This document shows, one piece after another, positions 226-27,005 of a stretch of 64,000 nt of DNA. Position 1 is the stretch's first letter; each line of letters opens with the position of its first letter. The notes beneath the pieces are model-generated. The model worked only from the letters and a program-made list of their open reading frames with translations. It searched no databases and was not told the DNA's origin. The position numbers and the translations under genes are program-made. Source of the DNA: Acidobacteriota bacterium. GTDB lineage: Bacteria; Acidobacteriota; Polarisedimenticolia; J045. The stretch covers positions 76,466 through 140,465 of the forward strand of contig JAGOJY010000004.1 in assembly GCA_017994815.1 (NCBI GenBank), written 5' to 3'.

Positions 226-471
226 CTACTTCGGGTGCGGGATGATGGTAATGAGGTAGTAGGTGTCGCCCTCGATCGTGAAGTAGAAGCGCCAGGAGCC
301 GGTCACCCGGCCCTGCCACAGCCCACGGGCCGGATCGTACTTCTTGACGCGCAGAGAGGGGTGCCGCTGGTTTGATAGCAACAACGCGGCCTTGCGGTCG
401 AACGCACGCTGGATCGCGGGCGGTGCCGTCGCGTAGCTCTTGCGGAACCGCTCGGTGTAGGCCAGGCGCAT
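226..471 (-). CDS. RelE/ParE-family type II toxin (81 aa)
   Basis: Internal Met of ORF 226..834. Translation MRLAYTERFRKSY...RHPSLRVKKYDP...WRFYFTIEGDTYYLITIIPHPK is a typical RelE/ParE fold signature. Its start overlaps the stop of the upstream antitoxin. Confidence 0.8.
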   Translation of the reverse strand: MRLAYTERFRKSYATAPPAIQRAFDRKAALLLSNQRHPSLRVKKYDPARGLWQGRVTGSWRFYFTIEGDTYYLITIIPHPK

Positions 472-773: not shown

Positions 774-775
774 AC

Positions 776-830
776 CTCGTTGTATCAATTCTTATACTTG
801 TAGCAATTGTATCAGTTACTGCCGCGGTCG
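776..830 (-). promoter_or_regulatory. AT-rich TA promoter/operator with three TTGTATCA-type repeats
   Basis: TTGTATCA at 780-787 and 807-814, and TTGTAGCA at 797-804. The patch is AT-rich in a 70% GC genome and lies immediately upstream of the antitoxin start. Autoregulated TA operons typically have such operators. Confidence 0.4.
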
Positions 831-4216: not shown

Positions 4217-4405
4217 GGCGGGACCGTAACAAGCACGCGCAGAACGGGACAGGAGGCGGGAGCTGCCGGGGGCGGCAGGTACTGACAGGATCTTCGGATG
4301 GCCCACATCGCTTCTCTCGGTGCAAAACGGGATCCGAGCGGCGCGGTCCTTAACCAATGCGCGTACCCTTCCAAGACGTCGAGCGATTTGTTACGCTTAC
4401 CTTCG

Positions 4406-7743: not shown

Positions 7744-7909
7744 GGCAGACCGCGGATCGTTCACGTCTCTGTGCCCGCGCTGCTGGTCAGGAAGGCCCAG
7801 ATCGCGGGAGGATCCGGGGTGTTGTGGTTGCTCGCATCCATGGACTTCAACCTGCCAAGCCCACCGGTCGTGTCAACGGTCCGGTTCTCGCGGACTCTCG
7901 GGCAGGGCC

Positions 7910-12500: not shown

Positions 12501-14480
12501 GGCCGAGTTGTCGTACTCGATGTTGGTGTCGAGCACACCGGGTTCCGGCGGGTCGATCTTGGTCAGCCGGCCGAGGTCGTCATAGGTGAAGTTGGTGGTC
12601 TTGCTGTTCTCGTCCGTCTGCGCGAGAACGAGGCCGGTCTCCTGGTCGATGGTGCGGCTGAAGAGCTGATCGTCGTTCACGGTCACGCTGCTCAGGACGC
12701 CGTAGGTGTGGACGAAGTCGGTGGTGATGTCGGTCGTGCCGTTCTCCTCGACCTGCTGCTGGATGTCTCCGCGTGCGTCGTACTCGAAAGTGGTGTGAGT
12801 GGTGCCGGAAGTCGAGTTCTCACCGGACAGCGTGTCGTACCAGCGGTCTTCCGAGGAGAGGTGCCCCAGGATCTCGCCCGCCGGGCAGGAAGTGCAGGAG
12901 TAGTACTCGCGCGTCGTCTCCGCCTTCTTGGTACCCGATGCGGTCTTCCGGAGTTCCCTGGTGACCAACTGAACGAGGTTGTTGCTGCGGAACGTCGCGT
13001 CGTCGCCGTCGCCATTGGAGTGCTCGTACTCGTACTGGGTCTTGCGGTACGCCGCTCCGTCCCAGTCGCGCTCCTCGACCGTGCCCACGTTACCGTAGTT
13101 GTCGTGCCCCGAGAACAAGGTCTCAGAGCTGCGGCTCGTGCCACCGTAGAGGGTGACCGTGGTTTGCGTCAGAAGAGCACGGGTCGCATCCTCGAAGTAG
13201 CCGTTCTGCGTCGAGATCTCGTCGTTCGAGATGCGCTGGCCCGTGTACACGTGCTCCACCTTCTTGAGCAGGGTGGACGAGCCCGAGTAAACCTCGGTCT
13301 TGTTGAGCGTACCCGCACGCCAGATCTGGTCGGTGCCGGTGTTCCCGCGCCGGTTGAAATAGTGCTTCTGGACGTTGTTCGACGGGTCCGTGACCGCGGT
13401 CGGATTGTCAGGCAGCGTCTCGGTGGCGTAGCTGTACGTCCAGGTGCCCCCACTGGCGGCTCGGGAACTCACCACCCGGGTCCGCTCGTTGCTCTGGTAC
13501 GTGTTGCGGTGCGGGTTGTAGAAGGTGTTGTCGGCGTAGGCGTAGGTGATGGTGCCGCCCTGCGGCAGCGTGATCGTGTGCAGCTCCGGGAGCGACGAGA
13601 CCTGGTAGTAGTCGTAGAGCGTCTCAAGCCCGGTGGGCAGGGTCACGCTCGCGAGAACGTTCTTGGACGTGTACGCAGGCTCAGCGACGTCGTAGGTGTA
13701 GGTGATCGACTGGCCGGCCGTGTTTTTCACGGCCATCGTGGACAGGCGCTTGGGCGAGCCAGGGTGGTTGACGTGGTTGATGTACTGGAAGGTGACCTGG
13801 CGGTTCCAGCGGTTCTCGGTCGCGGTGAGCCAGTTGATGTAGGAGTAGTTCTTCTCGTAGGTGTGGGTGATGCGGTTGCCGGCCGTGTCCTCTTTGTATT
13901 CGAGGTAGCGGTAGTCGCTCCACGTGTACGCCGTGGCGCTCGGGAAGTGCCACTTGGTCCCTGTCGGATCCGTCACGGTCCAGCCGCTGTCGGAAACCAG
14001 CGCCCAGCCGCCCTTGGAGATGTAGTCGCCTGCCGGAGCAGGGGTCAGGACGTTGTTGTGGAAGAACTCTTCCTTGCCGCCGCCCGGTAGTTCCAGAACG
14101 TACTTCGGTACACCGCCCGTGAGCGGATTCACCCACAGGCGTCCCGGGTGCATCATCCAGCCGATGCCGAGGTTCGATTCCTCAGCGAAGTCGGTGTCGT
14201 ACCCGGGAGGAGGACCCCACGTGCGGATCTTGCTCGTGTACCAGCGCACGACCTCGAGGTCCATCCCGTTCGGTCCGGGCAGGCGGTAATCGACGTACCG
14301 CAGGATCAGGGCACCGGTAAAGAGATCCACCTGCTCCTCGGCCATGAGCGAGTCGTACACGTGCTCGGCCCGAAACTCGGGCAAGCTGTAGGATTCGTCG
14401 GAAGCTGCGACTAGGTGCGTCGCAGCCAATACCACCAGCACAGCGGTGCAACACCGGCCAATACTCCGCATGAGCCGCAT
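9591..14480 (-). CDS. RHS/YD-repeat polymorphic toxin with Sec signal peptide and variable C-terminal toxin domain (1629 aa)
   Basis: N-terminal signal MRLMRSIGRCCTAVLVVLAATHLVAAS. Many YD repeats (YTYDGLGR, YDYDLLDRL, YTYDKLGNR). RHS core end NFTDPDGR is followed by a ~220-aa C-terminal domain of unassigned family. No PAAR or VgrG nearby. Confidence 0.85.
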   Translation of the reverse strand: MRLMRSIGRCCTAVLVVLAATHLVAASDESYSLPEFRAEHVYDSLMAEEQVDLFTGALILRYVDYRLPGPNGMDLEVVRWYTSKIRTWGPPPGYDTDFAEESNLGIGWMMHPGRLWVNPLTGGVPKYVLELPGGGKEEFFHNNVLTPAPAGDYISKGGWALVSDSGWTVTDPTGTKWHFPSATAYTWSDYRYLEYKEDTAGNRITHTYEKNYSYINWLTATENRWNRQVTFQYINHVNHPGSPKRLSTMAVKNTAGQSITYTYDVAEPAYTSKNVLASVTLPTGLETLYDYYQVSSLPELHTITLPQGGTITYAYADNTFYNPHRNTYQSNERTRVVSSRAASGGTWTYSYATETLPDNPTAVTDPSNNVQKHYFNRRGNTGTDQIWRAGTLNKTEVYSGSSTLLKKVEHVYTGQRISNDEISTQNGYFEDATRALLTQTTVTLYGGTSRSSETLFSGHDNYGNVGTVEERDWDGAAYRKTQYEYEHSNGDGDDATFRSNNLVQLVTRELRKTASGTKKAETTREYYSCTSCPAGEILGHLSSEDRWYDTLSGENSTSGTTHTTFEYDARGDIQQQVEENGTTDITTDFVHTYGVLSSVTVNDDQLFSRTIDQETGLVLAQTDENSKTTNFTYDDLGRLTKIDPPEPGVLDTNIEYDNSAAQYVIIKRGTQEKTRYSFDTLGRPYLVRTRLSGSTYSYARRSYNAAGQLYKTYELALSDPTTNAPAIAYTYDGLGRPATETTVDGTTQYSYTSNTKTVTEPGGNTVVYTFDDFGRVSQLQDQEGSVTTYDYDLLDRLKTIDPPGSATSNSTFTYNALGYLTEETRPESGRTRYTYDKLGNRTKRNDAQSINVYYDYDPRRRLTLIDYPSGTDARFYYDGDAVPGASATYVNARGHLSGMTDGTGTTLWTDFNADGQLQRRENRIDGSTLVTNWTYDTRGNVESLKYPTLSGQSVETEVTYTYNDADLPDYAALVGGRVVVTDVNYSAAFKPSRIDYDNGVSVYLPTSAQSRNRPEQIYTTGVTEDGVARNLLLDFQEYNARGLLKKVATTQGFVGQPDVANRVDQYTYDSRRNLEQVQYGTTGTVTYTADARGNLTSRNSTQWPSLNFSYGYTDNKINGWSYNLRGDLLNDGAHSYGYHPGGFLQTVDSAAWSYSYDGQGQRTLTSGPSGLVRLDLFGDRGELLARRERQGAGVADARREFIWLGDQLVAEKTYANVDDGESVFDSLRLTKTGEQPLLSWTDPAGCGTPWEVWRAESPNLSDQQNMTPDGTTKLSYLDELTTLLDTQLFYDVRTARSILRWHVNDHLGSTRYVLDGEGGLDASYELFPFGEPKTDGCRVLDGGYTAKLRDDESGLSNFGARFYNWRIARFMSPDPGDSFSDLDPRSVNRYAYAFNDAVNFTDPDGRAGVRALVGRYLDWTSGLNRAAAARVISWGASLQEAGAAANDGSFGGVAVDATLGIGGSMVQGIGDTLNLGTSVGEVHGTGGTGESYVRASAAEAGRAGGLILMLTSVAGGARAASTTLNEVRVPTASGDIIVPRGWVRSMADNGRGVVYRPAGSRGDAGAVRAAMPDGWNPAGYAKVYNLRGQPIDPWTGRTLARAPSHLPLTGRTTTQPPRTIPVAVPPERQ

Positions 14481-14492
14481 GGTCGTTCCCCC

Positions 14493-15065
14493 TCACCGCG
14501 AACTGCGGGTGCAGTCGTCACCCACGCAGCGGACGCACACCACGCCCGGCTCTGGTTCGGTCGGGCAGCCTCCGGAACACGTAACCTGAAGCACCGCCTC
14601 AGGGTCGGTAAGCGGGGCGCACGCAATGATGTTGCCCTCTTCGGTCGTACAGCGGTAGCCGTCGGGAACTCGGACCGTGAGTGAATCCACCCCGCCACCG
14701 GGCGCAGGTTCCGCGCACAGGGTCTCGATGACCACGCCGCCGTCGGCGTAGAACTCGTCGAACCGGTTGATGGTCGTGCAGGCACCGGACCCGTTGACCT
14801 CCAGGCAGCCGTGGTCGAAGCGGACGACGCCTCCGCCGATCTCGTCGGTGCAGCCGGCGGTGCCGGTTTCCACGTCCCACTCGCAGCTTCCCGTCTCGGA
14901 GAAGAGCGCGACCGTGTAGGCAATGCCGACCGAGTCGTTGAGGTTGCAGGCGAAGCTCTCGTAGTGCATGAACCTGGGTCGTCTGCGGACCTGGTCGGCG
15001 GTCGCTGGGGCGGTCAGCAACAGCAAGAGCACGAGAAGCGTGGCGATCCCGCGAACCTGGCGCAT
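14493..15065 (-). CDS. Cys-rich secreted protein, hypothetical
   Basis: Internal Met MRQVRGIATLLVLLLLLTAPATA is a signal peptide; at least 10 Cys. Ends 13 nt upstream of the RHS start, so probably co-transcribed. Confidence 0.5.
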   Translation of the reverse strand: MRQVRGIATLLVLLLLLTAPATADQVRRRPRFMHYESFACNLNDSVGIAYTVALFSETGSCEWDVETGTAGCTDEIGGGVVRFDHGCLEVNGSGACTTINRFDEFYADGGVVIETLCAEPAPGGGVDSLTVRVPDGYRCTTEEGNIIACAPLTDPEAVLQVTCSGGCPTEPEPGVVCVRCVGDDCTRSSR

Positions 15066-15256
15066 GTCCGGTCTCCTCAGACTGGGCAGAGATGGATCAA
15101 CTCCGACGCACATCGCTGCCCGAATGAAAACGAGCCCCATAGGACGTCCCCAACCCTCTTCCCGGTAGTTCTACGCCGGTGCGTTCAGGTCCGCTACCGG
15201 TTGAACACCAATGGTTACTGTGTAAGTCCCGGAGGTTTGGGAAGAACCCTGCCAAA

Positions 15257-15296
15257 GAGAAACGCCAGCGCTTTGCACGCTGGCGTTTGGTTTGGG
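15257..15296. terminator. Strong hairpin (AACGCCAGCG-ctttgca-CGCTGGCGTT) with flanking T-runs; candidate intrinsic terminator
   Basis: Perfect 10-11 bp stem just downstream of the minus-strand nuclease gene stop. T/U-rich on both sides (GTTTGGTTTGGG on plus, TTCTCTTTGG on minus). Confidence 0.5.
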
Positions 15297-15301: not shown

Positions 15302-16087
15302 CTACCGCACCCGGACGAGAGTTTCCGCCGCCCGCACGGTGTCGCCGGTGCAGACGGGGAGGTAGTCGCACCAGGCGCACCACAGCCCGGGGCGCTTGTA
15401 GAACTCGCCCTCGGCGATCCGCCGGCCGAGCAGGGCGGCCTTGGTGAGGAACTCGGAGAGGTGCCGTTCGGTGCGGGACGTGAGGTGCCACTCGATCCGC
15501 GGCTCTTTCGTCTTCACGAGCACGCACAGGGCGGCCTGCTCGGCCGTGGGCTCGGCGAGCTGGTAGGCCGTGAGCTGGTCCGAGAGTTCCGCCTCGTGCT
15601 CGTCGTAGCGGGCGGAGGCGGTCTTGAAGTCGATCACGGTGCGCTTGCCGTCGAGGACGGCCACGAGGTCCACGACACCCACCAGGGGCAGGTCGAGGCT
15701 GGTGACGTCGAGCTGGAACGGCTTCTCCACGGCTCCGACGGTGCCGAGCTTGGGAAGCTCGTCCGCCACGAACCGGGCGAGGAGCACCTCGCCGATGCCG
15801 TCCAGCCGCTCCCAGGAGTCGCGCGTGCCGTACGTGAGGGCGACCTGCTTCGTCGCCTCCCAGGTCTCGCCGAACAGCGAGACCGGATCCTCGCCCGACT
15901 GGAACAGCCGGGCGAGGGCCTGGTGGACGATCTGGCCGAAGACGAGTGTCGCGGGCGGGACCTTCGGGCGGAGGTTCTCGACGTAATACAGGCGGTACTG
16001 CTCGGGGCAGTGGAGATAGCGGCTGAGGCGCGAGAACGAGAGGTGGGGCGTGGCCCTCGCGACTGGCTCCGGACGGGCGGCGGTCAC
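15302..16087 (-). CDS. PD-(D/E)XK nuclease, Cas4/RecB-like with C-terminal Cys cluster
   Basis: N-terminal motif SFSRLSRYLHCPEQYRLYYVE, DFKT motif, and C-terminal CAWCDYLPVC. GTG start at 16087 overlaps the stop of the upstream SWIM gene (GTGA). Confidence 0.65.
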   Translation of the reverse strand: MTAARPEPVARATPHLSFSRLSRYLHCPEQYRLYYVENLRPKVPPATLVFGQIVHQALARLFQSGEDPVSLFGETWEATKQVALTYGTRDSWERLDGIGEVLLARFVADELPKLGTVGAVEKPFQLDVTSLDLPLVGVVDLVAVLDGKRTVIDFKTASARYDEHEAELSDQLTAYQLAEPTAEQAALCVLVKTKEPRIEWHLTSRTERHLSEFLTKAALLGRRIAEGEFYKRPGLWCAWCDYLPVCTGDTVRAAETLVRVR

Positions 16088-16950
16088 GGTGACCGCCGCG
16101 GGGCGGGACCGAGCGGCAGGACCTGCTCGACGTTCTGGAACCGGCCGTCGGGAGACGGCTGGGTCACGATCCGGCACAGCAGGTCGAGCCGGACGCCCTC
16201 GGCGACGGTGCCGGCGCGGTCGGGGAAGCCGGCCGCGGCGATCGCGTCGGCGAGCTGCTTCGGGTTGCCGAACAGTCTGAGCGTCTGGCCGTTCGATTGG
16301 ATCAGGATGTAGAGCCTGCGGCCCCACTTGCCGTCCATGCCGTCGATGCGCAGGAGCATCGCCGGCATGCCGGACTGAGCCGGCGGGGGCGCAGCGGGAC
16401 GCGGCGCGGGAGCGGAACGCTCGGCACGCTGTTCGCCGTTTCCGGCGAGGAACCGGCCGATGATCCCGGCCTGGAGCGCGAGGATCGCCTCGGCTCTGCC
16501 TTCGGTTTCGGAGCGGGTCGGCTCGACCGGGCAGGAGAACTCGACCGAGAGCGAGTCGATCCGGCCGTCGGGGGAGATGCTGCGCTTGAGCAGCATCTGC
16601 GCCGCCGAACCGTTCGTGGTGTGTGGCGCGCGCCGGCGCCGGGTGGGTTTGCCCTCCTCCTGGATCGCGGCGCGCTCCTCGTCCTCGGCGGGCGGCACCG
16701 TTTCGGGCGGAGCCGGGGCCGCGAAGCGGCTCTGGACCGCCAGCACGTGCTTGCAGCGCCAGTCAGGGTCGGTGCGGTGATAGTCGAAGTCGGGGCAGGT
16801 GCAGGTCGGGCTGTTCAGGTCGGGGCCGACGACGTACACGGTCCGCCCGTTCTGGGGCGCGTGAACGCGAAAGCCGTCGGGGCCGCGCGCGATGACGAAG
16901 ACTTCGTCCGTGGCGCGTGTGTCGCGGGGTTGTCGTTCCTCGGGTCGCAT
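16084..16950 (-). CDS. SWIM zinc-finger protein with uncharacterized C-terminal domain
   Basis: CTCPDFDYHRTDPDWRCKHVLAV matches SWIM CxCxnCxH. A Pro/Ala linker and an unknown C-terminal domain follow. Confidence 0.65.
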   Translation of the reverse strand: MRPEERQPRDTRATDEVFVIARGPDGFRVHAPQNGRTVYVVGPDLNSPTCTCPDFDYHRTDPDWRCKHVLAVQSRFAAPAPPETVPPAEDEERAAIQEEGKPTRRRRAPHTTNGSAAQMLLKRSISPDGRIDSLSVEFSCPVEPTRSETEGRAEAILALQAGIIGRFLAGNGEQRAERSAPAPRPAAPPPAQSGMPAMLLRIDGMDGKWGRRLYILIQSNGQTLRLFGNPKQLADAIAAAGFPDRAGTVAEGVRLDLLCRIVTQPSPDGRFQNVEQVLPLGPAPRRSP

Positions 16951-17109
16951 GACGGGTCCTCCTTTCGTGAGGGGTTCGGGGTCGTGGGGTGGTAATGAAC
17001 GTCACTCCACGCTACCGAAGGCCCTCGGACCCGTGAAGGCGGCACATGGGGCCGACACGTCACGGCATGCAGTCTTCCGACCAAACGCCCAGCGGGACAC
17101 GCTGACGTC

Positions 17110-18282
17110 ATGGCCACTCCTTCTTCCCAGTCCGTGACGCTCCTCGGGCGCACCACGTTCCGCAACGTGCACCGCGTGTTCGGCATCCGGCAGCGCGACC
17201 GGCTAAGTCACGTCTACCTCATCGGGCGCACCGGGGTGGGTAAGTCCACGCTCTTGGCGTCGATCGCTCGTCAAGATGTGGACGCTGGGCACGGCCTCGC
17301 GCTGTTCGACCCACACGGCGACCTCGCGGACGACGTCGCGGGCTACGCCAAGCGGGTGCGGCCCGACGACCTTCTTTACCTCAACGCCCCTGATCCAGCG
17401 CAGCCGTTCACGTTCAATCCTCTCGCGGAGGTGTCACCGGAAAGACGCTCTCTCGCGTCGGCGAATCTGCTCGACGTGTTCAAGAAGATCTGGGCCGACT
17501 CGTGGGGCCCGCGCCTGGAGCACATTTTGAGGAACTGCCTCTTGACGTTGCTCGACCAACCGGAGCCATCCCTGGGCGACATGCCGCGCTTGCTGCATGA
17601 CACTGCGTACCGCAAACGCGCGGTTCTGCGCGTCGCGAACCCTCAGGTCCGGCACTTCTGGCTCGTCGAATGGGAGGGGTACGGCGTCCGGTTCCGGGCC
17701 GAGGCCGCGGCGCCGCTCGATAACAAGGTCGGCGCCTTCGTCACCGACCCCGTGCTCCAACGAGTACTGCTCGCAAGAAACCAACCACTTAGCCTGCGCC
17801 GCATCATGGACGAGGGCCGCGTGCTCGTCGTGAATCTCTCGAAGGGCCGTATCGGCGAACCCGTCGCGGCGCTCCTTGGTTCCCTCCTGTTGGCAAGCCT
17901 CGGACTCGCCGGCCTTGGACGCGCCGACGTGCCCGAGACGGCACGCCGCGACTTCTTCACGATGCTCGACGAGTTTCAGTTCTTCATCACGCAATCGTTG
18001 GCAGGCATGCTCGCCGAGCTCAGGAAATTCCACGTCGGCCTGACGCTCGCGCATCAGTTCCTCGGCCAACTCGATCCGCTGCTTCGGAATGCTGTTCTGG
18101 GGAACGTGGGGTCCTTGGTCTGCTTTCGAATCGGCGCTGAGGATGCGGAGACTCTGGAACGGGAGTTCGTGCCGGACCTCCGGGCAGAAGACCTCAGTAC
18201 CCAACCGAACTTCGCCTTCTACACCAAGATCATGAATGACGGCCGCATCTCGCGGCCATTCAGTGCGGAGACGTTCCGCTGA
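17110..18282 (+). CDS. HerA/FtsK-superfamily ATPase, TraD/VirD4 (T4SS DNA-transfer)-like, no TM segment
   Basis: Walker A GRTGVGKST, LFDPHGDL motif and Walker B LDEFQF. The C-terminal LAHQFLGQL resembles the T4CP C-terminal region. Confidence 0.7.
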   Translation: MATPSSQSVTLLGRTTFRNVHRVFGIRQRDRLSHVYLIGRTGVGKSTLLASIARQDVDAGHGLALFDPHGDLADDVAGYAKRVRPDDLLYLNAPDPAQPFTFNPLAEVSPERRSLASANLLDVFKKIWADSWGPRLEHILRNCLLTLLDQPEPSLGDMPRLLHDTAYRKRAVLRVANPQVRHFWLVEWEGYGVRFRAEAAAPLDNKVGAFVTDPVLQRVLLARNQPLSLRRIMDEGRVLVVNLSKGRIGEPVAALLGSLLLASLGLAGLGRADVPETARRDFFTMLDEFQFFITQSLAGMLAELRKFHVGLTLAHQFLGQLDPLLRNAVLGNVGSLVCFRIGAEDAETLEREFVPDLRAEDLSTQPNFAFYTKIMNDGRISRPFSAETFR

Positions 18283-20035: not shown

Positions 20036-21676
20036 ATGACCGCGAGACCTACGTCGCCCTCGCCAACGGAGGGTGGGCGCGCCGAACGACCGGCACGTCC
20101 GCACCTCGGCAGTACCCGCCGTGCTGACGACCCGGGTGATGGTCTGGAACCGCCGGACGGTGATCCGCCTGATGACCCCGTCTGGTTCGATCGCGAACAC
20201 CAGCAGGTGCTGCTACGGATCGAGAGCTGCGACACCCGTCGCGACCAGGAACGGGCCGCCCGAATCGCGAGCGCGGAGCAGACCGAGCGCATCCAGGAAC
20301 TGAACGCGGAAGAGGCAGGACTCGGGAGTGACGAGCACCTGCGGCGCATCGCCGAGAGTTCCTGGTTCCCCCATCTCCGCGCGATCCGGCGCGGCGCGAA
20401 CCTATGCTGGTGGTTCGACATGTTGCTCTGGATGGCGTTGGCAGTGAGCCTGTGGTTCTACTGCCGGCAGCTGGTTCAGGCCGACGACGGGTCGACGCCA
20501 GCGCTCCTCTACCTCGCCGGCCTCGTCCTGGTACCCCTCTTCGCGTCGGTCTGCGCGCGGGCGACGAAGGGTATGGGGCAGCAGGTCGCCGTTAGCCGTT
20601 TGACCGACGCGACGAACATCGAGCACACGATCGACCGGCAGGTACGGGTGGCTGGGTCGTGCGCCGTCTTCGGCCTCGCCTGCCTCTTGGTACTCCTCAT
20701 CTCCTTCCTCTTCACGATTCCCGGGGGCGTCGGGGTCGTTCAGGCGGTGAGCACGATCGTGACCATCGGGGCGAACGTCACCTTTGGTCTCGCGGCCGGG
20801 ATCGGTAGCAATGCAGCTGGGATCCTCGAGAAGCCGAGCCGGCGAGAGACGATTCGTTGCCGTATCGAGATGAAGAAGAACCTGCGCGATCGGCTCTCGA
20901 AGTTTTTCAGCGTTCTTGCCGTTATCGCCAGCGGGCTGAGTGCGGCTCGAGGTGCCGAGCCGGCACCCGTCTGGGTCTGGCTGGTCGGCACGACCGACCT
21001 CGAGCCGATCCAACGCCGCGCAGCGTTGGATGCCCTGGTCCGGAGTGCCACCACACGTGCGCGCCAGTTGAACGTCGGTGCCATTCAGGTCGTGACCATC
21101 ACTGGCGAGGACATCCTCTCGAACATGCGGTGGGTAGTGGTTCCTCGGCAGGCCTACTTCGAGGACTGCGCCAAAGCGCGGCCCGCGACGGCGATTGGGA
21201 AGACCTGGACGCAGTGGTCTCCGGCCGTCGTCGCAGAGCACCGCGCCCAGGCGGTTGCCGCGTGCACTGCGCGTGTACGCGAACAACGATCCCAGGCCCT
21301 CGCCGAGGAGCAGGGATTCCGCAACGCTCTCTGGTCCGCGGTGTCCGCCACGCCTCGCGCGAACGCAACCCGTATCGTCCCACTCCTGAACCTCGTGCTG
21401 TCCCGCCCGGGAACACGCGCGGTCGACATCGTGAGTACCGGTGTCGACCAGAGTGGTTTGCCCCTCATGTCCCTGAGCGTGCCGGCGACAACTCGCGTCA
21501 CACTCATCCTCACCCGTCCGGACCCGCGACACCGTCCCTACCTTTGGGACGTGCTCCAGGCCGGTAAGGCGTGGTCACGCGTGAAAGGCGTCGTCGTAGT
21601 CGGTGCCGAGGAGTACGCCGGGGTCTGGCCGGTTCTAAACGCTGGCTCGCTTTCACGCAACACGGGGAGCGAGTAG
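20036..21676 (+). CDS. Polytopic membrane protein, hypothetical (546 aa)
   Basis: Several hydrophobic helices (WWFDMLLWMALAVSLWF, LYLAGLVLVPLFASV, CAVFGLACLLVLLISFLF). First gene of a tightly overlapping operon. Confidence 0.5.
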   Translation: MTARPTSPSPTEGGRAERPARPHLGSTRRADDPGDGLEPPDGDPPDDPVWFDREHQQVLLRIESCDTRRDQERAARIASAEQTERIQELNAEEAGLGSDEHLRRIAESSWFPHLRAIRRGANLCWWFDMLLWMALAVSLWFYCRQLVQADDGSTPALLYLAGLVLVPLFASVCARATKGMGQQVAVSRLTDATNIEHTIDRQVRVAGSCAVFGLACLLVLLISFLFTIPGGVGVVQAVSTIVTIGANVTFGLAAGIGSNAAGILEKPSRRETIRCRIEMKKNLRDRLSKFFSVLAVIASGLSAARGAEPAPVWVWLVGTTDLEPIQRRAALDALVRSATTRARQLNVGAIQVVTITGEDILSNMRWVVVPRQAYFEDCAKARPATAIGKTWTQWSPAVVAEHRAQAVAACTARVREQRSQALAEEQGFRNALWSAVSATPRANATRIVPLLNLVLSRPGTRAVDIVSTGVDQSGLPLMSLSVPATTRVTLILTRPDPRHRPYLWDVLQAGKAWSRVKGVVVVGAEEYAGVWPVLNAGSLSRNTGSE

Positions 21677-22476: not shown

Positions 22477-24536
22477 TTACGCTCCTGGTTCTGGCAGGCC
22501 TCGCTCTCGGCGGGGCCTGCCTCGTCTATGTCTACTTTGCGCAGCAACGACAGGATCAGGGCCGACGCCAGCGCGAACGCGCGACATGGCTTGCGCACGA
22601 CCGGGCAGCCAAGGCGACGAGCGCAGTCGAACGCGTCGCCCGCTTTTACCCGTTCCTGCTGAGAGAGCTCGAGGCGGTAAGCGTCGCGACAGAGAAGTCT
22701 GGCACAGCAGTTCGTGATCTTCTGCAGTCGCTTCCCGGGATCTCGATCGGTGTCGGGCCCCACGACATTCCCGCCGTGCTGGCCCACAGCCGGAGACCGT
22801 CGCACGTCCTCCTCCTGGCTCGCTCCGGTGGCGGCAAGACCGTTCTCTTGACCCGGGTGCTCGCTCATGACCTAGGGCACACCAGTGTCGTCGTGATCGG
22901 CGCTGAGCGAGATGCATTTCGCCGGTTGGTCCTGCCGTTTGTTCCGCCAGCGCGGGCAAAGGACACCGTGTACTGGGCGCTCGGGGACGAAGCGTGCCCC
23001 GTCGGACTGAACGCTTGTGACGTTCCGGCCGGTGCTTCGCCGGCCCGATACGCCGGGGACCTCTACCACATCTGGAAGCAGGGTTCGGAAGAAGACTCCA
23101 TAGGCGGTCGCAGCGACGCGATCGTCTGGAACACGCTCGCGGTACTCGTTGCCGCCCCCGGCACCTCGTTCCTCTCGATCCGCCCCATACTTGAAGACGC
23201 CTCGTTCCGTGCGGGCCTGCTTGAGCACGTCACCGATTCCGAGGTTCGGAACTACTGGACCAGTTCTTTTCCCCGTCTGCCCGCAAGCGCCATTCAGCCG
23301 TTCCTGAACCGCGTGACACGGATCCTGAGTCCGGCTATTCGCCGCGCGTTCTGTGCGGAGCAGAACACGTTCTCGCTGCGGGGCGTACTCGACTCCGGCG
23401 TACTGCTCGTGGACACCTCGGGCTTGCCGCCGGACGAACGACGCCTCGCTGCCCAGCTCGTTCTCGCGATGATCCAACTCTGCATCGAACAGCGCGACGA
23501 GATCGATGAAGGCGCTCGGCCCCGGACGCATCTGTTCATCGACGAATTTTCCACGCTGGCCGGAACGTCCGAGCATACGTGGCGCGAGTTGTTCTCCCGC
23601 TCGCGTCGCATGGGTCTCGGTCTGTTCTTGACCTTGCAGCACACCGCGGCCTTGCCTACGGCAATTCGAGCGGAGCTCCTGACCAATAGTTCCACGCTGA
23701 TCGCCTTGCCGTTGGGCGCGAAAGACGCAGCCCTCCTCAATCGCGAGTTCTTGGTGCCGTCTACGACGGGCGGAACGGCGGCGATTCCGTCAGCGAGGCT
23801 CATAGACAGCGGTGTGGGGTCGGGCTATCTGCGCACGGCGCCCGGCGCGGTGGCCATGCCCGTCCGATTCCACCCACCCCTGGCAGAGCGCCCAATAGCG
23901 GACGGCGAGCGCATCAAGTCGGTGTCGTGGAAGACACATGGAGCATCGAGGCCGCCTGAGGCGGGGCCACCGCCTGTTATGGCGCGATCCGCTCCATGCC
24001 CCCCTGCCGAGCCTCCGCTGAGTGGATTGCCCGGCCGCGGCGGCTCTCAGCACAAGTTCCTCCAGCAATTCGTTGCTCAGGTGGGGTCAGAGCGCGGGTT
24101 TCGCTCAGACCTAGAACTCTCGATCCTCGCCGGCACCGGACGAGTAGATGTTGCCCTCATGCGTGACGATCTCCGGATTGCCGTTGAGATCGCGATCACC
24201 ATGACTCCTGAGCGGGTCGCAGCATCCGTAACGAAGTCACTCGCGGCGGGATTCGACCGCGTCGTTGTCCTTGCGCCAGACCAGAACCTACGGCGACGAA
24301 TTGAGCCAGAGCTCGCAGCAGCGCTCGGCAGTAAGGAACGTGAGCGAGTCCACGTCGGTGGCGCCGAGACGCTCGTTGCCCTGTTAGACGAAGTCCAAAC
24401 ACCGACATCGTCCGATCAACCCGCCGGGTACCGCCTCTCGGTTCGACAGGTGGAGGTTCCCCCAGTTCGAGCTACGGCAAACCGCGCGACGCTCGCCCGA
24501 ATCGTTGGTGACGCGCTTCTACGGAGGACGCAATGA
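22473..24536 (+). CDS. Membrane-anchored FtsK/TraD-like (T4CP-like) ATPase with extra C-terminal domain (687 aa)
   Basis: N-terminal TM MITLLVLAGLALGGACLVYVYF, Walker A ARSGGGKT and Walker B LFIDEFSTLAG. ~200-aa C-terminal domain of unknown function. Confidence 0.7.
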   Translation: MITLLVLAGLALGGACLVYVYFAQQRQDQGRRQRERATWLAHDRAAKATSAVERVARFYPFLLRELEAVSVATEKSGTAVRDLLQSLPGISIGVGPHDIPAVLAHSRRPSHVLLLARSGGGKTVLLTRVLAHDLGHTSVVVIGAERDAFRRLVLPFVPPARAKDTVYWALGDEACPVGLNACDVPAGASPARYAGDLYHIWKQGSEEDSIGGRSDAIVWNTLAVLVAAPGTSFLSIRPILEDASFRAGLLEHVTDSEVRNYWTSSFPRLPASAIQPFLNRVTRILSPAIRRAFCAEQNTFSLRGVLDSGVLLVDTSGLPPDERRLAAQLVLAMIQLCIEQRDEIDEGARPRTHLFIDEFSTLAGTSEHTWRELFSRSRRMGLGLFLTLQHTAALPTAIRAELLTNSSTLIALPLGAKDAALLNREFLVPSTTGGTAAIPSARLIDSGVGSGYLRTAPGAVAMPVRFHPPLAERPIADGERIKSVSWKTHGASRPPEAGPPPVMARSAPCPPAEPPLSGLPGRGGSQHKFLQQFVAQVGSERGFRSDLELSILAGTGRVDVALMRDDLRIAVEIAITMTPERVAASVTKSLAAGFDRVVVLAPDQNLRRRIEPELAAALGSKERERVHVGGAETLVALLDEVQTPTSSDQPAGYRLSVRQVEVPPVRATANRATLARIVGDALLRRTQ

Positions 24537-25513
24537 GCGGCCCGGTCCCGTTCGGGCTCCGGCGTGAGCGCGGCACACTCGTGGCTGAACCCGCCGAGGC
24601 GGGCCTCGTCCGCGCCCTGGTTGGGGAATTCCTAGCAACGGGACGAATGAAGTCAGTTGCCGCGACGTTGAATCAACATGGGTTTCGGACCAGACGCGGC
24701 CGGCCGTGGAGTGACATGGCGGTTGCGCGAGCACTCCAGACGATTTGCGTTCACAACCTCGTGGACGAAGGACTTCGTGCCCGTTGCGCTGCCCTGCTCG
24801 AGGCCCACCGTCAAGGCGCGCCCGCTCGGCGCGCGGTGCACCCCTTGGGCGGCGTGGTCGCCTGCGGCACGTGCAGCGGGAGGATGTACCTCTTCGGCTC
24901 GGGTCCAACCGGCAAGTTCATCTGCCGATCCTGCCGAACGAAGATTCCCGCGCCGACACTAGAGCAGGTCTTCGTGGCAAGTCTCGCCTCGATTTCGATC
25001 ACACCCGAAGAGGTCTGCGCGGCATGTGGGGATCAGGAGCGACCCCTCGACCTGCCTCCCCGCGGTCTTGCTGTAGCGGAGATCTGGCCGGCGCTTGGCC
25101 TCGACGATCGACGGCAACTCGTTGACGCGGTCGTGTCCGAGGTGGTGGTCGCAGACAACGAGATCACGGTTTCCTTCGCATTGACCGCGGCGTCATCGGC
25201 GCCCAGCAGCGACGGCCCGCCCGTCCCGTCGCCTTCTTCTCGCAGTTGTACGTCCTCCAAGAAGAAGCCAACGAAACAGCGCAACACAAAGGCTGACCGT
25301 TCGGCCGCACCCGAGGAAAGCGCGGGGCCGTTGGTCACCGTGGAGGAAGCGGCGGCGCTCCTCCGCACGAGTCCGAAGGCGATTTACGCCATGGCCGAAC
25401 GCGGACAGCTCGGTGGCGTGGTGCGCGTGGGACGCCGCCTGCTCTTCTCGCGGGAGCAGCTGCTACACTCACTCACCGGAAGTCGTGCGCCATCGCCTGA
25501 GGAGACCAGGTGA
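24533..25513 (+). CDS. Serine-recombinase-derived protein lacking catalytic domain (recombinase domain + Cys4 ribbon) fused to C-terminal excisionase/AlpA-type HTH
   Basis: N-terminus PFGLRRERGTLVAEPAEAGLVRALVGEF is a recombinase domain. CGTCSG...CRSC is a zinc ribbon. C-terminus LVTVEEAAALLRTSPKAIYAMAERGQL is an Xis/AlpA-like HTH. Overlaps both neighbours. Confidence 0.55.
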   Translation: MSGPVPFGLRRERGTLVAEPAEAGLVRALVGEFLATGRMKSVAATLNQHGFRTRRGRPWSDMAVARALQTICVHNLVDEGLRARCAALLEAHRQGAPARRAVHPLGGVVACGTCSGRMYLFGSGPTGKFICRSCRTKIPAPTLEQVFVASLASISITPEEVCAACGDQERPLDLPPRGLAVAEIWPALGLDDRRQLVDAVVSEVVVADNEITVSFALTAASSAPSSDGPPVPSPSSRSCTSSKKKPTKQRNTKADRSAAPEESAGPLVTVEEAAALLRTSPKAIYAMAERGQLGGVVRVGRRLLFSREQLLHSLTGSRAPSPEETR

Positions 25514-26643
25514 TGAGCGTCAGAGTCAGACCGTACCGACGAGGCGGCTTCGAAGTGGACATCCTCGCGCTCCTGCCCGACGGAACCCGGATTCGAGATC
25601 GGCGCCGAGCGCCGGTCGCGAGCCGATCCGCGGCCCTTCGCTGGGGCCAGGCGCGCGAACGGGAACTCATCCGCAACGGTCGCCCGAAACAACGAGAGGA
25701 GGTGCCAACGCTCGCAGATTTCGCTCCGCGTTTTCTCGACGGCTACGCGCGAGCGAATCGGCAGAAGCCCAGCGGCATCGCGGCGAAGGAGACTGCGCTC
25801 CGGGTCCACCTGATTCCTGCTCTGGGCAACAAGCCGTTGGACCGGATCGGCAACGAGGACGTACAGCGCGTCAAGACGGCTCTCTCGGACCGATCCCCAA
25901 AGACGGTGAACAACGTGCTCACGGTCCTCAACACGTTGCTCAAAGTAGCCGTCGAGTGGGGAATCGTTGAACGAATGCCCTGCACCGTCCGCCTGCTACG
26001 CGTGACCCAAGGCCGTGCGGGCTTTCACGATTTCCACGAGTACGAGCGGCTCATCGAGGCGGCTCGGGCGGTCGACAGCAATGCCTTAGTCGTGGTGCTG
26101 CTGGGTGGCGAAGCCGGGCTCCGCTGTGGCGAGATGATGGCCCTCGAGTGGACCGACGTGGACACGACCCGGCGTCAGCTGCAGGTAGAGCGCTCCGAGT
26201 GGAAGGGCAAGGTCACGGTCCCGAAGGGCGGCCGGTCTCGCATCGTGCCGATGACCTCGCGCCTTGCAGCGGCACTCACCGCACACCGGCATCTCAGGGG
26301 ACCGCGCGTGTTGTGCCAACCGGACGGGCAATCGCTCACACAGAAGATGGTGCGGGTCTTGGTGCAGAAGGCCGCGCGCCGGGCCCAACTCAAGAACCAG
26401 AGCGTGCACATCCTGCGGCACACCTTCTGCTCGCACCTTGCGATGCGGGGAGCCCCCGCGCGCGCCATCCAAGAACTAGCCGGACACAAGGACCTGTCCA
26501 CGACGCAGCGCTACATGCACCTCTCCCCGGCAGCAATCGAGAGCGCTATTCGCCTCTTGGACAGGTCAACACAACACCGGGGCACTGGAGACGGTGTGGA
26601 GACGGGCTCTGCCGAGAAACACAACCAGAGCCCGCACAAGTAG
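25510..26643 (+). CDS. int: Tyrosine-type site-specific integrase
   Basis: C-terminal catalytic region HILRHTFCSHLA...TTQRYMHL carries the R-H-R-Y pattern. Ends 5 nt from the tmRNA 3' end. Confidence 0.9.
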   Translation: MMSVRVRPYRRGGFEVDILALLPDGTRIRDRRRAPVASRSAALRWGQARERELIRNGRPKQREEVPTLADFAPRFLDGYARANRQKPSGIAAKETALRVHLIPALGNKPLDRIGNEDVQRVKTALSDRSPKTVNNVLTVLNTLLKVAVEWGIVERMPCTVRLLRVTQGRAGFHDFHEYERLIEAARAVDSNALVVVLLGGEAGLRCGEMMALEWTDVDTTRRQLQVERSEWKGKVTVPKGGRSRIVPMTSRLAAALTAHRHLRGPRVLCQPDGQSLTQKMVRVLVQKAARRAQLKNQSVHILRHTFCSHLAMRGAPARAIQELAGHKDLSTTQRYMHLSPAAIESAIRLLDRSTQHRGTGDGVETGSAEKHNQSPHK

Positions 26644-26648: not shown

Positions 26649-27005
26649 TGGTGGAGGCGGCGGGAATCGAACCCGCGTCCGAGGAAGGTCGGCAACAGGC
26701 TTCTACACGCTTAGCCGCTTCTTTTGGATCTCGCGTCGGCCGCACCGAAGGGCAGGTTCGGCGTCCGCCAGCCCTTTGATCTCGTCGCGCGCTGCCGGGC
26801 CGGCAACGCGGGACCAGCCCGCGTCCATTGACGTCCTGACTCCACCCCACGGGCGGGGCGAAGGGGACGGACCGCTTTTAGTTAAGCAGCCAGAGCAAGT
26901 TCAGTGTTGGCGCTTGTTTTAAGCGTCCCGTGGATTTACGAGGTACCGGGAACCCTCGGCGTGCCACCTGCGCTTTCCAGTCCCCGTCGAGTCCTGTTCG
27001 CCCCC
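26649..27005 (-). ncRNA. ssrA: tmRNA (ssrA), tag reading frame ANTELALAA
   Basis: 5' end GGGGGCGAACAGGACUCGACGGGG. 3' T-arm GCGGGUUCGAUUCCCGC followed by CGCCUCCACCA. Acceptor stem carries the G3:U pair. Internal ORF GCC AAC ACT GAA CTT GCT CTG GCT GCT TAA. Confidence 0.85.

What the first reader, a model, noticed from the sequence alone, without database searches (positions are those of the whole stretch)
15302..18282. SWIM zinc-finger protein translationally coupled to a Cas4-like 4-Cys PD-(D/E)XK nuclease, divergent from a HerA/TraD-like ATPase
The SWIM gene and the nuclease overlap by GTGA, so they are probably co-translated. A strong terminator follows the nuclease. A soluble HerA/FtsK-superfamily ATPase with a DPHGDL motif sits across a divergent promoter region. 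HerA-type ATPases partner with nucleases in several defence systems and in DNA end processing. A SWIM protein paired with a Cas4-like nuclease is not a described system to my knowledge.
Basis: partly seen in the sequence, partly recalled or inferred. Interest (0 to 1): 0.6.

Follow-up and report, generated by a model that had tools for sequence, protein, structure and literature searches.

The report
Mobile-element nuclease pair beside coupling ATPase
Two overlapping genes, one for a zinc-finger protein with a likely single-stranded-DNA-binding domain and one for a Cas4-like nuclease, sit next to a conjugation-type DNA-pumping ATPase gene as a conserved, undescribed module of integrating mobile elements in uncultured bacteria; it is more likely the element's own DNA-handling equipment than a stand-alone immune system, though that is not excluded.

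Summary
A 288-aa SWIM protein gene (16084-16950, -) overlaps by GTGA a 261-aa RecB/Cas4-family nuclease gene with four cysteines (15302-16087, -). A 12-bp hairpin terminator follows. A 390-aa soluble P-loop ATPase gene (17110-18282, +) lies across a 159-bp divergent region.

New findings:
- The ATPase is a type IV coupling protein (TrwB/VirD4) relative, not HerA.
- The SWIM protein ends in an OB fold.
- The three genes recur in the same arrangement in more than 40 loci from at least six phyla, all MAGs or metagenomes.
- The locus lies in a low-GC integrative element beside tmRNA.
- The ATPase is the anchor gene of this element family. It is commonly followed by a membrane protein, a membrane-anchored coupling-protein paralogue and an excisionase-like HTH.
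- SWIM+nuclease is its commonest divergent partner but is absent from about 70% of ATPase-anchored loci. There it is replaced by other cassettes, including a different small protein plus a distant Cas4-like nuclease.
- No phage, plasmid, PADLOC or literature match to the trio was found.

Best reading (about 0.4): an accessory module that binds single-stranded DNA and trims DNA ends for the element. A defence or exclusion role (about 0.25) remains open.

The parts
15253..15288 (-). Intrinsic-terminator-like hairpin after the nuclease gene: a 12-bp perfect stem at 15260-15288, then CUCUUUGG
   Evidence: Sequence read. RNA fold of the 61-nt region is -28.4 kcal/mol, z = -3.7.
15302..16087 (-). 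RecB/Cas4-family PD-(D/E)XK nuclease with a 4-Cys (probable Fe-S) cluster, 261 aa, GTG start
   Evidence: PDDEXK_1 8e-29. Phage exonuclease families phrog_69 2e-20 and phrog_1218 7e-19. Weak Cas4 hits below the curated cut-off. The family profile hits MGME1 and the AdnAB nuclease domain. Invariant catalytic residues and Cys residues.
16084..16087 (-). GTGA start/stop overlap between the SWIM gene and the nuclease gene (translational coupling)
   Evidence: Read directly. The 4-nt overlap occurs in 24 other loci (25 of 43 counting the window) and a 1-nt overlap in 3 more.
16084..16950 (-). SWIM-OB protein, 288 aa. It has an N-terminal SWIM zinc finger (1-76), a conserved beta-hairpin (118-139), a long helix (149-172), a low-complexity linker and a C-terminal OB-fold barrel (195-278).
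16951..17109 (.). Divergent control region. It holds a conserved inverted repeat (about 17035-17077: GAAGAC..GCCG-N8-CGGC..GCCTTC), then TAGCGTGGAG and GTTCATT motifs, and the ribosome-binding site of the SWIM gene.
   Evidence: Alignments. Repeat arms pair in 77% of cells against 32-44% when slid, but covariation does not exceed shuffles. RNAalifold finds no consensus structure. An nhmmer profile also finds the region upstream of the ATPase in loci without SWIM, but never in class C loci.
17110..18282 (+). Soluble type IV coupling protein-like P-loop ATPase (called ATP1 here), 390 aa, with the DPHGDL motif and an all-alpha insertion at about 110-234
   Evidence: Pfam DUF87 and TrwB_AAD_bind. 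Homologues carry TrwB_AAD_bind, T4SS-DNA_transf and TraG-D_C. The family profile hits TrwB at 2.5e-8 and DotL at 2.6e-5, but HerA only at 0.03. 33% identity over 94% of its length to part of an 812-aa coupling protein in an Embleya plasmid T4SS cluster. Foldseek matches: Cagbeta, HerA, TrwB, DotL, VirB4. No N-terminal membrane helix.
20036..21676 (+). Context: polytopic membrane protein (3-4 predicted helices), co-directional with ATP1; homologues in L005 and L036
22473..24536 (+). Context: second coupling-protein paralogue (called ATP2 here), 687 aa, with an N-terminal membrane helix and an extra C-terminal domain. It recurs 3-9 kb downstream of ATP1 on the same strand in 19 loci including the window.
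   Evidence: In L126 and L127 it is fused to the HTH_17 protein.
24533..26643 (+). Context: excisionase-like HTH_17 protein (24533-25513) and tyrosine integrase (25510-26643)
26649..27005 (-). Context: tmRNA gene, the insertion site of the element. GC rises from 0.62-0.66 inside the element to 0.70-0.75 beyond it.

Best explanation
The three genes belong to the backbone of an undescribed family of integrative mobile elements. Here the element is inserted at the tmRNA gene and spans bases 1 to 26648 or more.

The ATPase (ATP1) is a soluble member of the type IV coupling protein family and is the element family's anchor gene. It typically heads a co-directional cluster of ATP1, a membrane protein, a membrane-anchored coupling-protein paralogue (ATP2) and an excisionase-like HTH, sometimes followed by an integrase. 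I infer that this cluster is the element's DNA-translocation or transfer module.

A conserved control region of about 150 bp, containing an inverted repeat, separates ATP1 from a divergently transcribed, exchangeable accessory slot. In this window and in the commonest variant, the slot holds a translationally coupled pair: a SWIM zinc-finger protein ending in an OB fold (inferred to bind single-stranded DNA) and a RecB/Cas4-type Fe-S nuclease.

I propose that the pair works as a two-component DNA-end-processing or recombination module, analogous to the binder-plus-exonuclease pairs of lambda Red and of the SXT element. The nuclease would resect or trim ends or flaps of the element's DNA. The SWIM-OB partner, made in 1:1 stoichiometry, would bind the exposed single strand and target or restrain the nuclease. 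This would aid establishment, recombination or repair of the element during or after transfer.

Shown: gene identities, folds, conserved synteny, conserved gene overlap, conserved control region and mobile-element context. Inferred: single-stranded-DNA binding, nuclease polarity, physical interaction between the proteins, and any cooperation with ATP1.
For: Families and folds:
- Nuclease: PDDEXK_1 and phage 'exonuclease' PHROGs. The family profile matches MGME1 and the AdnAB nuclease domain. RecB motifs and four Cys are invariant.
- The partner protein has an OB fold whose best structural matches include single-stranded-DNA binders such as LEF-3 and Pf3 SSB, plus the OB-fold protein PrgE.
- The 4-nt or 1-nt gene overlap is conserved in 28 of 43 loci.

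Mobile-element context:
- tmRNA, tyrosine integrase, excisionase-like HTH, serine recombinase and primase, with a GC drop.
- Recurrent neighbours in other loci are ATP2, the membrane protein family here called F9 (about 230 aa), HTH326 (the excisionase-like HTH_17 protein encoded at window 24533-25513), serine recombinase, primase/p678 (the ORF at window 1938-3974), RadC and DUF932.
- Variable cargo lies directly beyond the nuclease: RHS toxin here, CBASS, type I restriction-modification, AbiE and toxin-antitoxin genes elsewhere.

The pair is accessory:
- It is absent from 34 of 46 ATPase-anchored loci.
- In class B it is replaced by a different small protein plus a Cas4-like nuclease of 24-29% identity.
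- It is absent where primase and p678 precede ATP1.

Other points:
- The control region is conserved upstream of ATP1 whatever the partner cassette.
- Three MAGs carry two SWIM-family loci each, as expected for mobile elements; in two of them both loci hold the trio.
- The idea that mobile elements carry exonuclease plus binder modules (SXT bet/exo, lambda Red) comes from my own knowledge.
Against: - No member of the trio has been tested.
- The SWIM+nuclease pair is almost never found without the ATPase (26 of 30 SWIM-anchored loci). This hints at a tighter functional link to ATP1 than 'neighbouring slot' implies.
- Several loci (L004, L013, L017, L022, L042, L046) show the intact trio with none of my other element marker genes within 8-10 kb. 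That would fit an autonomous, selectable function such as defence.
- ATPase-plus-nuclease architectures of this superfamily are used in defence. DUF4297-HerA and TdpAB are among the fold matches, and the PADLOC mad8 model hits at 7.6e-15.
Confidence: 0.4

Rival explanations
1. The trio is a self-contained defence or exclusion system carried as cargo. A hexameric coupling-protein-type motor would load onto foreign DNA, the SWIM-OB protein would sense single-stranded DNA or DNA ends, and the Cas4-like nuclease would degrade the target. This would parallel the HerA-nuclease defence machines.
For: - The intact trio recurs as a compact cassette in varied neighbourhoods rich in defence genes. Examples are type I restriction-modification with SAVED-HNH, CBASS, AbiEii, a PLD-helicase with toxin-antitoxin genes, and methyltransferase/DUF4238/ubiquitin-like genes.
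- Some loci lack my other element marker genes within 8-10 kb.
- Fold matches of the ATPase include DUF4297-HerA and TdpAB. The PADLOC mad8 ATPase model hits at 7.6e-15.
- The partner of the nuclease is swapped between classes while a nuclease is kept, as in modular conflict systems.
- SWIM is nearly always found with the ATPase.
Against: - No PADLOC system matches.
- The ATPase is transcribed divergently from the nuclease, not in one operon.
- The ATPase is usually the first gene of a cluster with membrane proteins and a membrane-anchored coupling-protein paralogue. In class C it follows a primase and a P-loop protein.
- 34 of 46 ATPase-anchored loci lack SWIM.
- Defence genes nearby are equally expected at a cargo slot of a mobile element.
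- By sequence the ATPase is closer to TrwB and DotL than to HerA.
Confidence: 0.25
2. The trio is a mobilisation (relaxosome plus coupling) module. The PD-(D/E)XK nuclease would nick at an origin of transfer (oriT) in the conserved intergenic repeat, the SWIM-OB protein would be the auxiliary oriT or single-stranded-DNA binder, and ATP1 would be the coupling ATPase. This would resemble MobC plus MobB of CloDF13.
For: - MOB_C relaxases belong to the PD-(D/E)XK superfamily (PMC12857230).
- CloDF13 encodes its own coupling protein, MobB, which also assists relaxation (PMC7431656).
- Phage 0305phi8-36 pairs a VirD4-like ATPase lacking a membrane helix with a MobC-type relaxase (PMC3357382). Its ORF201 is a distant hit of ATP1.
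- The intergenic region holds an inverted repeat plus conserved downstream motifs that persist across phyla. This layout is typical of oriT regions lying between divergent transfer operons (my own knowledge).
- No canonical relaxase was found in the window.
Against: - The nuclease shows no similarity to the MobC/Replic_Relax-type relaxase ORF200 (hhalign probability 0.2%). ORF200 itself hits Pfam Replic_Relax.
- The nuclease has the Fe-S RecB/Cas4 signature typical of enzymes that process DNA ends.
- The pair is missing from about 70% of ATPase-anchored loci, which is hard to reconcile with an essential relaxase.
- Genuine Replic_Relax genes occur in a few related loci, next to ATP2 rather than ATP1.
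- ATP1 lacks the membrane domain that is needed for function in TrwB, MobB and PcfC (PMC7431656).
- No VirB4 was found in any locus.
Confidence: 0.15
3. The link between the ATPase and the pair is synteny only. SWIM+nuclease would be one of several cassettes that landed in an insertion hot spot next to the ATPase promoter and would have no functional relation to the ATPase.
For: - The ATPase occurs with at least three other upstream arrangements.
- The control region stays with the ATPase whatever the partner.
- Distance correlations are only moderate: ATP1-nuclease 0.43 and ATP1-SWIM 0.33, against 0.58 for SWIM-nuclease.
Against: - SWIM-containing loci are spread across the whole ATPase tree rather than forming one recent clade.
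- SWIM is almost never found away from the ATPase.
- The intergenic spacing is held at about 140-170 bp in most loci.
Confidence: 0.15

Closest known systems
Type IV coupling proteins (TrwB of R388, VirD4/Cagbeta, DotL, TraD)
   Same: The ATPase domain is homologous. The family profile hits TrwB at 2.5e-8 and DotL at 2.6e-5. It is 33% identical over 94% of its length to part of a bona fide coupling protein in a T4SS cluster. Homologues carry the TrwB_AAD_bind, T4SS-DNA_transf and TraG-D_C domains. The model shows an all-alpha insertion, and fold matches have TM-scores of about 0.6.
   Different: It has no N-terminal transmembrane domain. No VirB4 or other T4SS genes, and no canonical relaxase, lie in the element. 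It is only 390 aa and is paired with a second, membrane-anchored paralogue.
Cas4 / AddB / AdnAB / MGME1-type RecB-family nucleases
   Same: It has the PD-(D/E)XK core with E, D, (D/E)xK and QxxxY motifs. One N-terminal and three C-terminal cysteines match the Fe-S cluster signature.
   Different: It scores far below the Cas4 equivalog cut-off (27 bits against 65). No cas genes appeared in the scans of nearby genes, and Tandem Repeats Finder found no array near the locus. It is a stand-alone 261-aa protein not fused to a helicase.
Two-component recombination modules of phages and integrative conjugative elements (lambda Beta/Exo, RecET, SXT Bet/Exo/Ssb)
   Same: The gene order is DNA-binding partner followed by exonuclease, the two genes are tightly coupled, and they are carried by a mobile element. 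The nuclease hits phage 'exonuclease' PHROGs.
   Different: The partner is a SWIM zinc finger plus OB fold, not a RecT, Erf or Rad52 annealing protein. The family is absent from phage and plasmid collections. It is constantly adjacent to a coupling-protein-like ATPase.
MOB_C mobilisation modules (CloDF13 MobB/MobC, pAD1 TraX, phage 0305phi8-36 ORF200/201)
   Same: A PD-(D/E)XK-superfamily nuclease sits next to a coupling-protein-like ATPase, which in the phage case also lacks a membrane helix.
   Different: No sequence similarity to the MobC/Replic_Relax type was detected. The Fe-S RecB signature is present instead, and the pair is dispensable in most related elements.
HerA-nuclease machines (HerA-NurA; defence systems Sir2-HerA, DUF4297-HerA, TdpAB)
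   Same: An ATPase of the same FtsK-HerA superfamily is encoded next to a nuclease, and the folds match.
   Different: By sequence the ATPase is nearer to coupling proteins. The PADLOC HerA model hits only at 6.8e-4 over the P-loop. The genes are divergent, not in one operon, and the nuclease family is different.

Membership tests
Type IV coupling protein (VirD4/TrwB/TraD) | [quoted passage not shown] | tested here: met
   Also 33% identity to part of the Embleya coupling protein.
Type IV coupling protein (VirD4/TrwB/TraD) | All-alpha domain inserted in the nucleotide-binding domain | tested here: inconclusive
   The AlphaFold2 model has a helical insertion at about 110-234 with pLDDT 80-94. 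It was not superposed domain by domain.
Type IV coupling protein (VirD4/TrwB/TraD) | N-terminal transmembrane anchor | tested here: not met
   A hydropathy scan finds no N-terminal helix in ATP1. The paralogue ATP2 has one at residues 2-20.
Type IV coupling protein (VirD4/TrwB/TraD) | Encoded with a T4SS (VirB4) and a relaxase | tested here: not met
   No hit to one actinobacterial VirB4 query (from the Embleya plasmid) by tblastn in about 120 loci, a search that would miss divergent VirB4. The Pfam-annotated loci show no VirB4 family either. Replic_Relax occurs in only 3 loci.
CRISPR-associated Cas4 | RecB nuclease motifs plus a 4-Cys cluster | tested here: met
CRISPR-associated Cas4 | Reaches the curated Cas4 model threshold | tested here: not met
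   TIGR00372 scores 27.3 bits against a cut-off of 65.
CRISPR-associated Cas4 | Adjacent cas1/cas2 genes or a CRISPR array | tested here: not met
   No cas families were found in the neighbouring genes. Tandem Repeats Finder found no array near the locus, although it is not a CRISPR detector.
HerA-nuclease systems (HerA-NurA, Sir2-HerA, DUF4297-HerA) | The ATPase matches HerA models over the whole domain | tested here: not met
   The PADLOC HerA model hits at 6.8e-4 over residues 34-83 only. The family profile hits PDB HerA chains at E 0.03-0.16, against 2.5e-8 for TrwB.
HerA-nuclease systems (HerA-NurA, Sir2-HerA, DUF4297-HerA) | ATPase and effector in one operon, with a NurA, Sir2 or DUF4297 effector | tested here: not met
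   The genes are divergent, and the effector is PDDEXK_1.
Phage Exo + annealing-protein recombination module | Partner belongs to the RecT, Erf, Rad52 or Sak4 families | tested here: not met
   Pfam, PHROGs and NCBIfam give only the SWIM domain and phrog_17897 (unknown function). The fold is an OB barrel.
Phage Exo + annealing-protein recombination module | Found in phage genomes | tested here: not met
   No match in IMG/VR or in GenBank phages.
MOB_C relaxase (Replic_Relax / MobC / TraX) | Sequence similarity to MobC-type relaxases | tested here: not met
   hhalign of the nuclease family against phage 0305phi8-36 ORF200 gives probability 0.2%. ORF200 itself hits Replic_Relax.
MOB_C relaxase (Replic_Relax / MobC / TraX) | Site-specific nicking at an origin of transfer | not testable with these tools
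   This needs biochemistry. A conserved inverted repeat exists in the intergenic region.
MADS defence system | Full gene set including a methyltransferase | tested here: not met
   Only the mad8 ATPase model (7.6e-15 for ATP1, 7.5e-13 for ATP2) and the mad1 HTH model hit. No methyltransferase appeared among the element ORFs that were scanned.

The most novel reading that the evidence does not exclude
The trio is a new kind of nuclease machine borne by a mobile element. A soluble motor derived from a coupling protein, a Cas4-like Fe-S nuclease and a SWIM-OB sensor of single-stranded DNA would together intercept and destroy incoming conjugative or phage DNA. This would be a defence or entry-exclusion system built from conjugation parts. 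It would also imply that this element family moves without VirB4, using two coupling-protein paralogues.
Probability: 0.2. Interest if true: 0.75.

Novelty: new variant of a known kind. Interest (0 to 1): 0.45.

Why it matters
The work defines a conserved, uncharacterised protein family (SWIM-OB, about 200 clusters at 50% identity). It also shows that family's fixed pairing with a Cas4-like nuclease next to a soluble coupling-protein-like ATPase.

The setting is a family of integrative elements spread across Acidobacteriota, Gemmatimonadota, Nitrospirota, Verrucomicrobiota, Planctomycetota and BRC1. To my knowledge gene-transfer mechanisms in these phyla are little studied. No VirB4 was detected in these elements, yet they carry two coupling-protein paralogues, one of which is fused to an excisionase-like HTH in some members.

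If the module proves to be a DNA-processing device for transfer or establishment, it would point to a non-canonical transfer route. If it proves to be a defence system, it would be a new architecture built from conjugation parts. Either way it gives concrete, clonable targets.

Tried and rejected
- PADLOC, NCBIfam and PHROGs scans gave no system-level match.
- No SWIM family member was found in PLSDB plasmids, GenBank phages or IMG/VR. No nuclease match was found in phages. In plasmids the nuclease has only three distant relatives at 25-28% identity. The only one whose neighbourhood I inspected (pDESTI.01, H33) showed no coupling protein within the about 13 kb examined.
- I looked for a direct repeat of the tmRNA 3' end to delimit the element. 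None was found inside the window.
- I tested whether the 120-aa class B partner protein (U8) is homologous to the central hairpin of the SWIM protein, which looked similar by eye. hhalign gives probability 0.1%, so this was rejected.
- I tested whether the nuclease is a MOB_C-type relaxase. hhalign gives probability 0.2%. The CloDF13 record was too poorly annotated or frameshifted to extract MobC.
- I tested whether the intergenic inverted repeat is a structured hairpin. RNAalifold finds nothing, and explicit pair counting shows conservation but no covariation beyond shuffles.
- Literature searches for SWIM with Cas4, coupling protein or TrwB_AAD_bind found nothing relevant. Two early searches were wasted on non-specific terms. 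The MADS paper is not in the library.
- The afdb50 fold library was unavailable.

Full report
**1. Observation**

On the minus strand a 288-aa ORF (16084-16950) carries a SWIM zinc finger (Pfam 1.7e-5, residues 38-72). The ligands C50, C52, C66 and H68 are invariant in 22 homologues.

Its stop codon TGA (16084-16086) overlaps a GTG at 16087-16085. That GTG starts a 261-aa PD-(D/E)XK nuclease ending at 15302; the sequence was read directly (Pfam PDDEXK_1 8e-29).

The nuclease family has these invariant residues: E121, D140, (D/E)153-x-K155, Q171xxxY175, and one N-terminal plus three C-terminal cysteines. This is the RecB/Cas4/AddB signature.

A 12-bp perfect hairpin followed by CUCUUU lies 14 nt after the stop codon. 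The region folds at -28.4 kcal/mol, z = -3.7.

Across a 159-bp gap, a 390-aa P-loop ATPase (17110-18282, +) is transcribed divergently. Its Walker A motif, DPHGD motif and Walker B DE residues are invariant in 21 homologues. It has no N-terminal membrane helix.

**2. What the proteins are**

*The ATPase (called ATP1 here).* It is a coupling-protein relative rather than a HerA.
- Its close homologues carry the Pfam domains TrwB_AAD_bind, T4SS-DNA_transf and TraG-D_C.
- A profile of the family hits TrwB at 2.5e-8 and DotL at 2.6e-5 in the PDB, but HerA only at 0.03-0.16.
- It is 33% identical over 94% of its length to part of an 812-aa coupling protein. That protein lies inside a Gram-positive-type T4SS cluster on an Embleya plasmid, alongside PrgI, a VirB4-like ATPase, a Replic_Relax protein and an NlpC/P60 hydrolase.
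- Its AlphaFold2 model (pLDDT 72, pTM 0.71) has a helical insertion and matches Cagbeta, HerA, TrwB, DotL and the C-terminal domain of VirB4.

*The nuclease.* Its family profile matches MGME1 and the Fe-S nuclease domain of AdnAB, and phage 'exonuclease' PHROGs. It falls far below the Cas4 equivalog threshold.

**3. Conservation**

The SWIM-OB family is small, with 202 clusters at E<=1e-30 among 1.84 billion representatives, and has essentially one architecture.

*Sampling by SWIM.* A scan of species-representative genomes gave 30 loci, all from MAGs. They come from Acidobacteriota, Gemmatimonadota, Nitrospirota, Verrucomicrobiota, Planctomycetota and BRC1. Binatia-labelled and Berkelbacteria-labelled members also exist.
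- The ATPase lies divergently upstream in 26 of the 30 loci, and the nuclease follows wherever the contig allows.
- The four exceptions are two SWIM fragments, one SWIM without either partner, and one SWIM+nuclease pair abutting host genes.
- Seven loci with Pfam-annotated gene calls show the same trio. In an eighth, L037, the ATPase position holds an unannotated 265-aa gene.
- The 4-nt overlap recurs in 24 other loci (25 of 43 counting the window) and a 1-nt overlap in 3 more.
- Mean pairwise divergence is lowest for the ATPase (0.37), then the nuclease (0.45), then SWIM (0.58). Distance matrices correlate at 0.33-0.58, and at most 1 of 500 permutations reaches the observed value.

*Sampling by the ATPase.* An independent sample of 80 metagenome loci changes the picture.
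- Only 12 of 46 loci with enough upstream DNA have SWIM, and 17 of 44 have a nuclease of this family.
- Class B loci instead carry an unrelated 120-aa protein overlapping a Cas4-like nuclease of 24-29% identity that keeps the four cysteines, sometimes with a DUF932 gene.
- Class C loci have a primase and a P-loop protein preceding the ATPase on the same strand.
- On an ATPase tree the SWIM-containing loci are spread throughout, while classes B and C form derived clades.

So SWIM+nuclease depends on the ATPase neighbourhood, but the ATPase does not depend on SWIM+nuclease.

**4. Context**

The window's first 26.6 kb has lower GC (0.62-0.66 against 0.70-0.75). It ends with an excisionase-like HTH_17 protein, a tyrosine integrase and the tmRNA gene.

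It also encodes a large serine recombinase, a primase-like protein, a PRiA4_ORF3 protein, a Phd/YefM antitoxin and an RHS toxin. This is an integrative mobile element.

Downstream of the ATPase on the same strand lie a polytopic membrane protein and a second coupling-protein paralogue, ATP2. ATP2 has an N-terminal membrane helix and an extra C-terminal domain.

The string of ATPase, membrane protein, ATP2 and HTH recurs in 19 loci including the window. In L126 and L127, ATP2 and the HTH_17 protein are fused into one protein of 906-1049 aa, which ties the two together functionally.

RadC, DUF932, serine recombinase and primase/p678 recur nearby. Three MAGs carry two SWIM-family loci each, and in two of them both loci hold the trio.

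An Embleya VirB4 query found no match in any locus by tblastn, and no VirB4 family appears in the Pfam-annotated loci. Replic_Relax genes occur in three loci, adjacent to ATP2 in L073. Phage 0305phi8-36 ORF200, described as MOB_C-type, hits this Pfam family.

Beyond the nuclease, gene content differs in every locus. It is often defence or toxin cargo: type I restriction-modification, CBASS, AbiE, toxin-antitoxin genes, and RHS here. The trio therefore sits at the junction between a conserved backbone module and a cargo region.

**5. The intergenic region**

Its length is held at about 140-170 bp in most loci, and it aligns across phyla. It contains:
- an outer inverted repeat CAAG...CTTG around an inner TGCCG-N4-CGGCA;
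- then TAnnCTGA and GTTCTTT motifs;
- then the ribosome-binding site of the SWIM gene.

The repeat arms pair in 77% of cells against 32-44% when slid, but covariation does not exceed shuffles. RNAalifold finds no consensus structure. The region therefore looks like a protein-binding operator or promoter, or another cis-acting site, rather than a structured RNA or DNA hairpin.

An nhmmer profile of the region also finds it upstream of the ATPase in class B and other loci that lack SWIM, but never in class C. Weak second copies occur elsewhere in some elements, including window 7685-7754. The site therefore belongs with the ATPase and the junction, not with SWIM specifically.

**6. Interpretation**

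The best-supported reading has three parts.
- The ATPase is a backbone gene of a family of integrative elements. It probably acts with ATP2 and the membrane proteins in DNA translocation.
- SWIM-OB plus the Cas4-like nuclease is the commonest occupant of an exchangeable, co-regulated accessory slot.
- The pair most likely forms a module that binds single-stranded DNA and processes DNA ends, serving establishment, recombination or repair of the element.

Three rivals remain.
- A self-contained defence or exclusion machine. Guilt by association, trio-only loci and precedents of ATPase-nuclease systems in this superfamily favour it. The divergent organisation and the ATPase's other partnerships count against it.
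- A MOB_C-like relaxosome with an origin of transfer in the intergenic repeat. Precedents come from PMC12857230, PMC7431656 and PMC3357382. Against it are the absence of any similarity to MobC-type relaxases and the dispensability of the pair.
- Synteny alone, with no functional link.

None of these can be settled without experiments.

**7. Novelty and verdict**

I found no description of this trio, of the SWIM-OB family or of this element family in the tools and literature available.

It is built from known kinds of parts in a new combination and lies in poorly studied phyla. I therefore rate it a new variant of a known kind, of moderate interest (0.45). The defence or exclusion reading (probability about 0.2-0.25) would raise the interest considerably.

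Noticed in passing
window 1-27005: The whole left part of the window is a low-GC integrative element inserted at the 3' end of the tmRNA gene (26649-27005, -). A tyrosine integrase ends 6 nt from it. No repeat of the tmRNA end was found inside the window, so the far end probably lies beyond base 1.
   Followed up: partly
window 9591-15140: A 1629-aa RHS-repeat protein with an unassigned C-terminal tip, plus a 215-aa ORF with no family match, lie directly after the nuclease terminator. This is the cargo slot of the element.
   Followed up: partly
window 1938-4357 (-): In the primase-like ORF (3281-4357) the Toprim domain precedes the CHC2 zinc finger, the reverse of the DnaG order. The ORF overlaps by about 700 nt, in another frame, a 678-aa ORF whose conserved part begins near residue 230. 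This could be a frameshift or a programmed fusion. The two genes are adjacent, with overlapping hits, in L030 as well.
   Followed up: no
window 24533-25513; L126 12021-15170; L127 12857-15577: The protein after ATP2 has a serine-recombinase 'Recombinase' domain fragment without the catalytic Resolvase domain, plus an excisionase-type HTH_17. In two related loci the HTH_17 domain is fused to the C-terminus of the membrane-anchored coupling-protein paralogue.
   Followed up: partly
window 55280-56721: A large tandem array with periods 72, 174 and 375 nt (80-97% matches). The units contain a GGGGAC(A/G)GGTGGCGCACCTGT palindrome-like core, inside a region of long overlapping ORFs. It is not a CRISPR array, because the whole unit is conserved.
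   Followed up: no
window 7685-7754 (-); also L015, L024, L030, L045, L075: Weak second copies of the core of the conserved control region upstream of the ATPase occur elsewhere in the elements (nhmmer E about 1e-3 to 1e-5). This suggests one regulator or cis-acting site is used at several places.
   Followed up: partly
L094, L101, L105, L110, L114, L119, L061, L041: An alternative cassette sits upstream of the same ATPase. It consists of a 110-125-aa protein with a conserved C-terminal MTDAQKRYLFRIL helical domain, overlapping a distantly related 4-Cys Cas4-like nuclease, sometimes preceded by a DUF932 protein.
   Followed up: partly
L006 5518-6084; L007 10809-11471: In two Gemmatimonadota loci, an ORF of about 190-220 aa whose sequence resembles an AraC-type HTH (judged by eye, not scanned) is inserted between the SWIM and nuclease genes, breaking the overlap.
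   Followed up: no
L035 (Sulfitobacter plasmid NZ_CP081110) 10975-13179: The closest ATPase homologue from a cultured organism (42% identity) sits divergently from a DUF3768 gene and a hypothetical gene, near a large serine recombinase. This is another partner cassette for the same ATPase family, and it lies in a host that can be grown.
   Followed up: no
window 471-788 (-): A Phd/YefM-type antitoxin ORF (Pfam 1e-6, just below the curated cut-off) lies at the left edge of the element. No toxin partner was identified.
   Followed up: no
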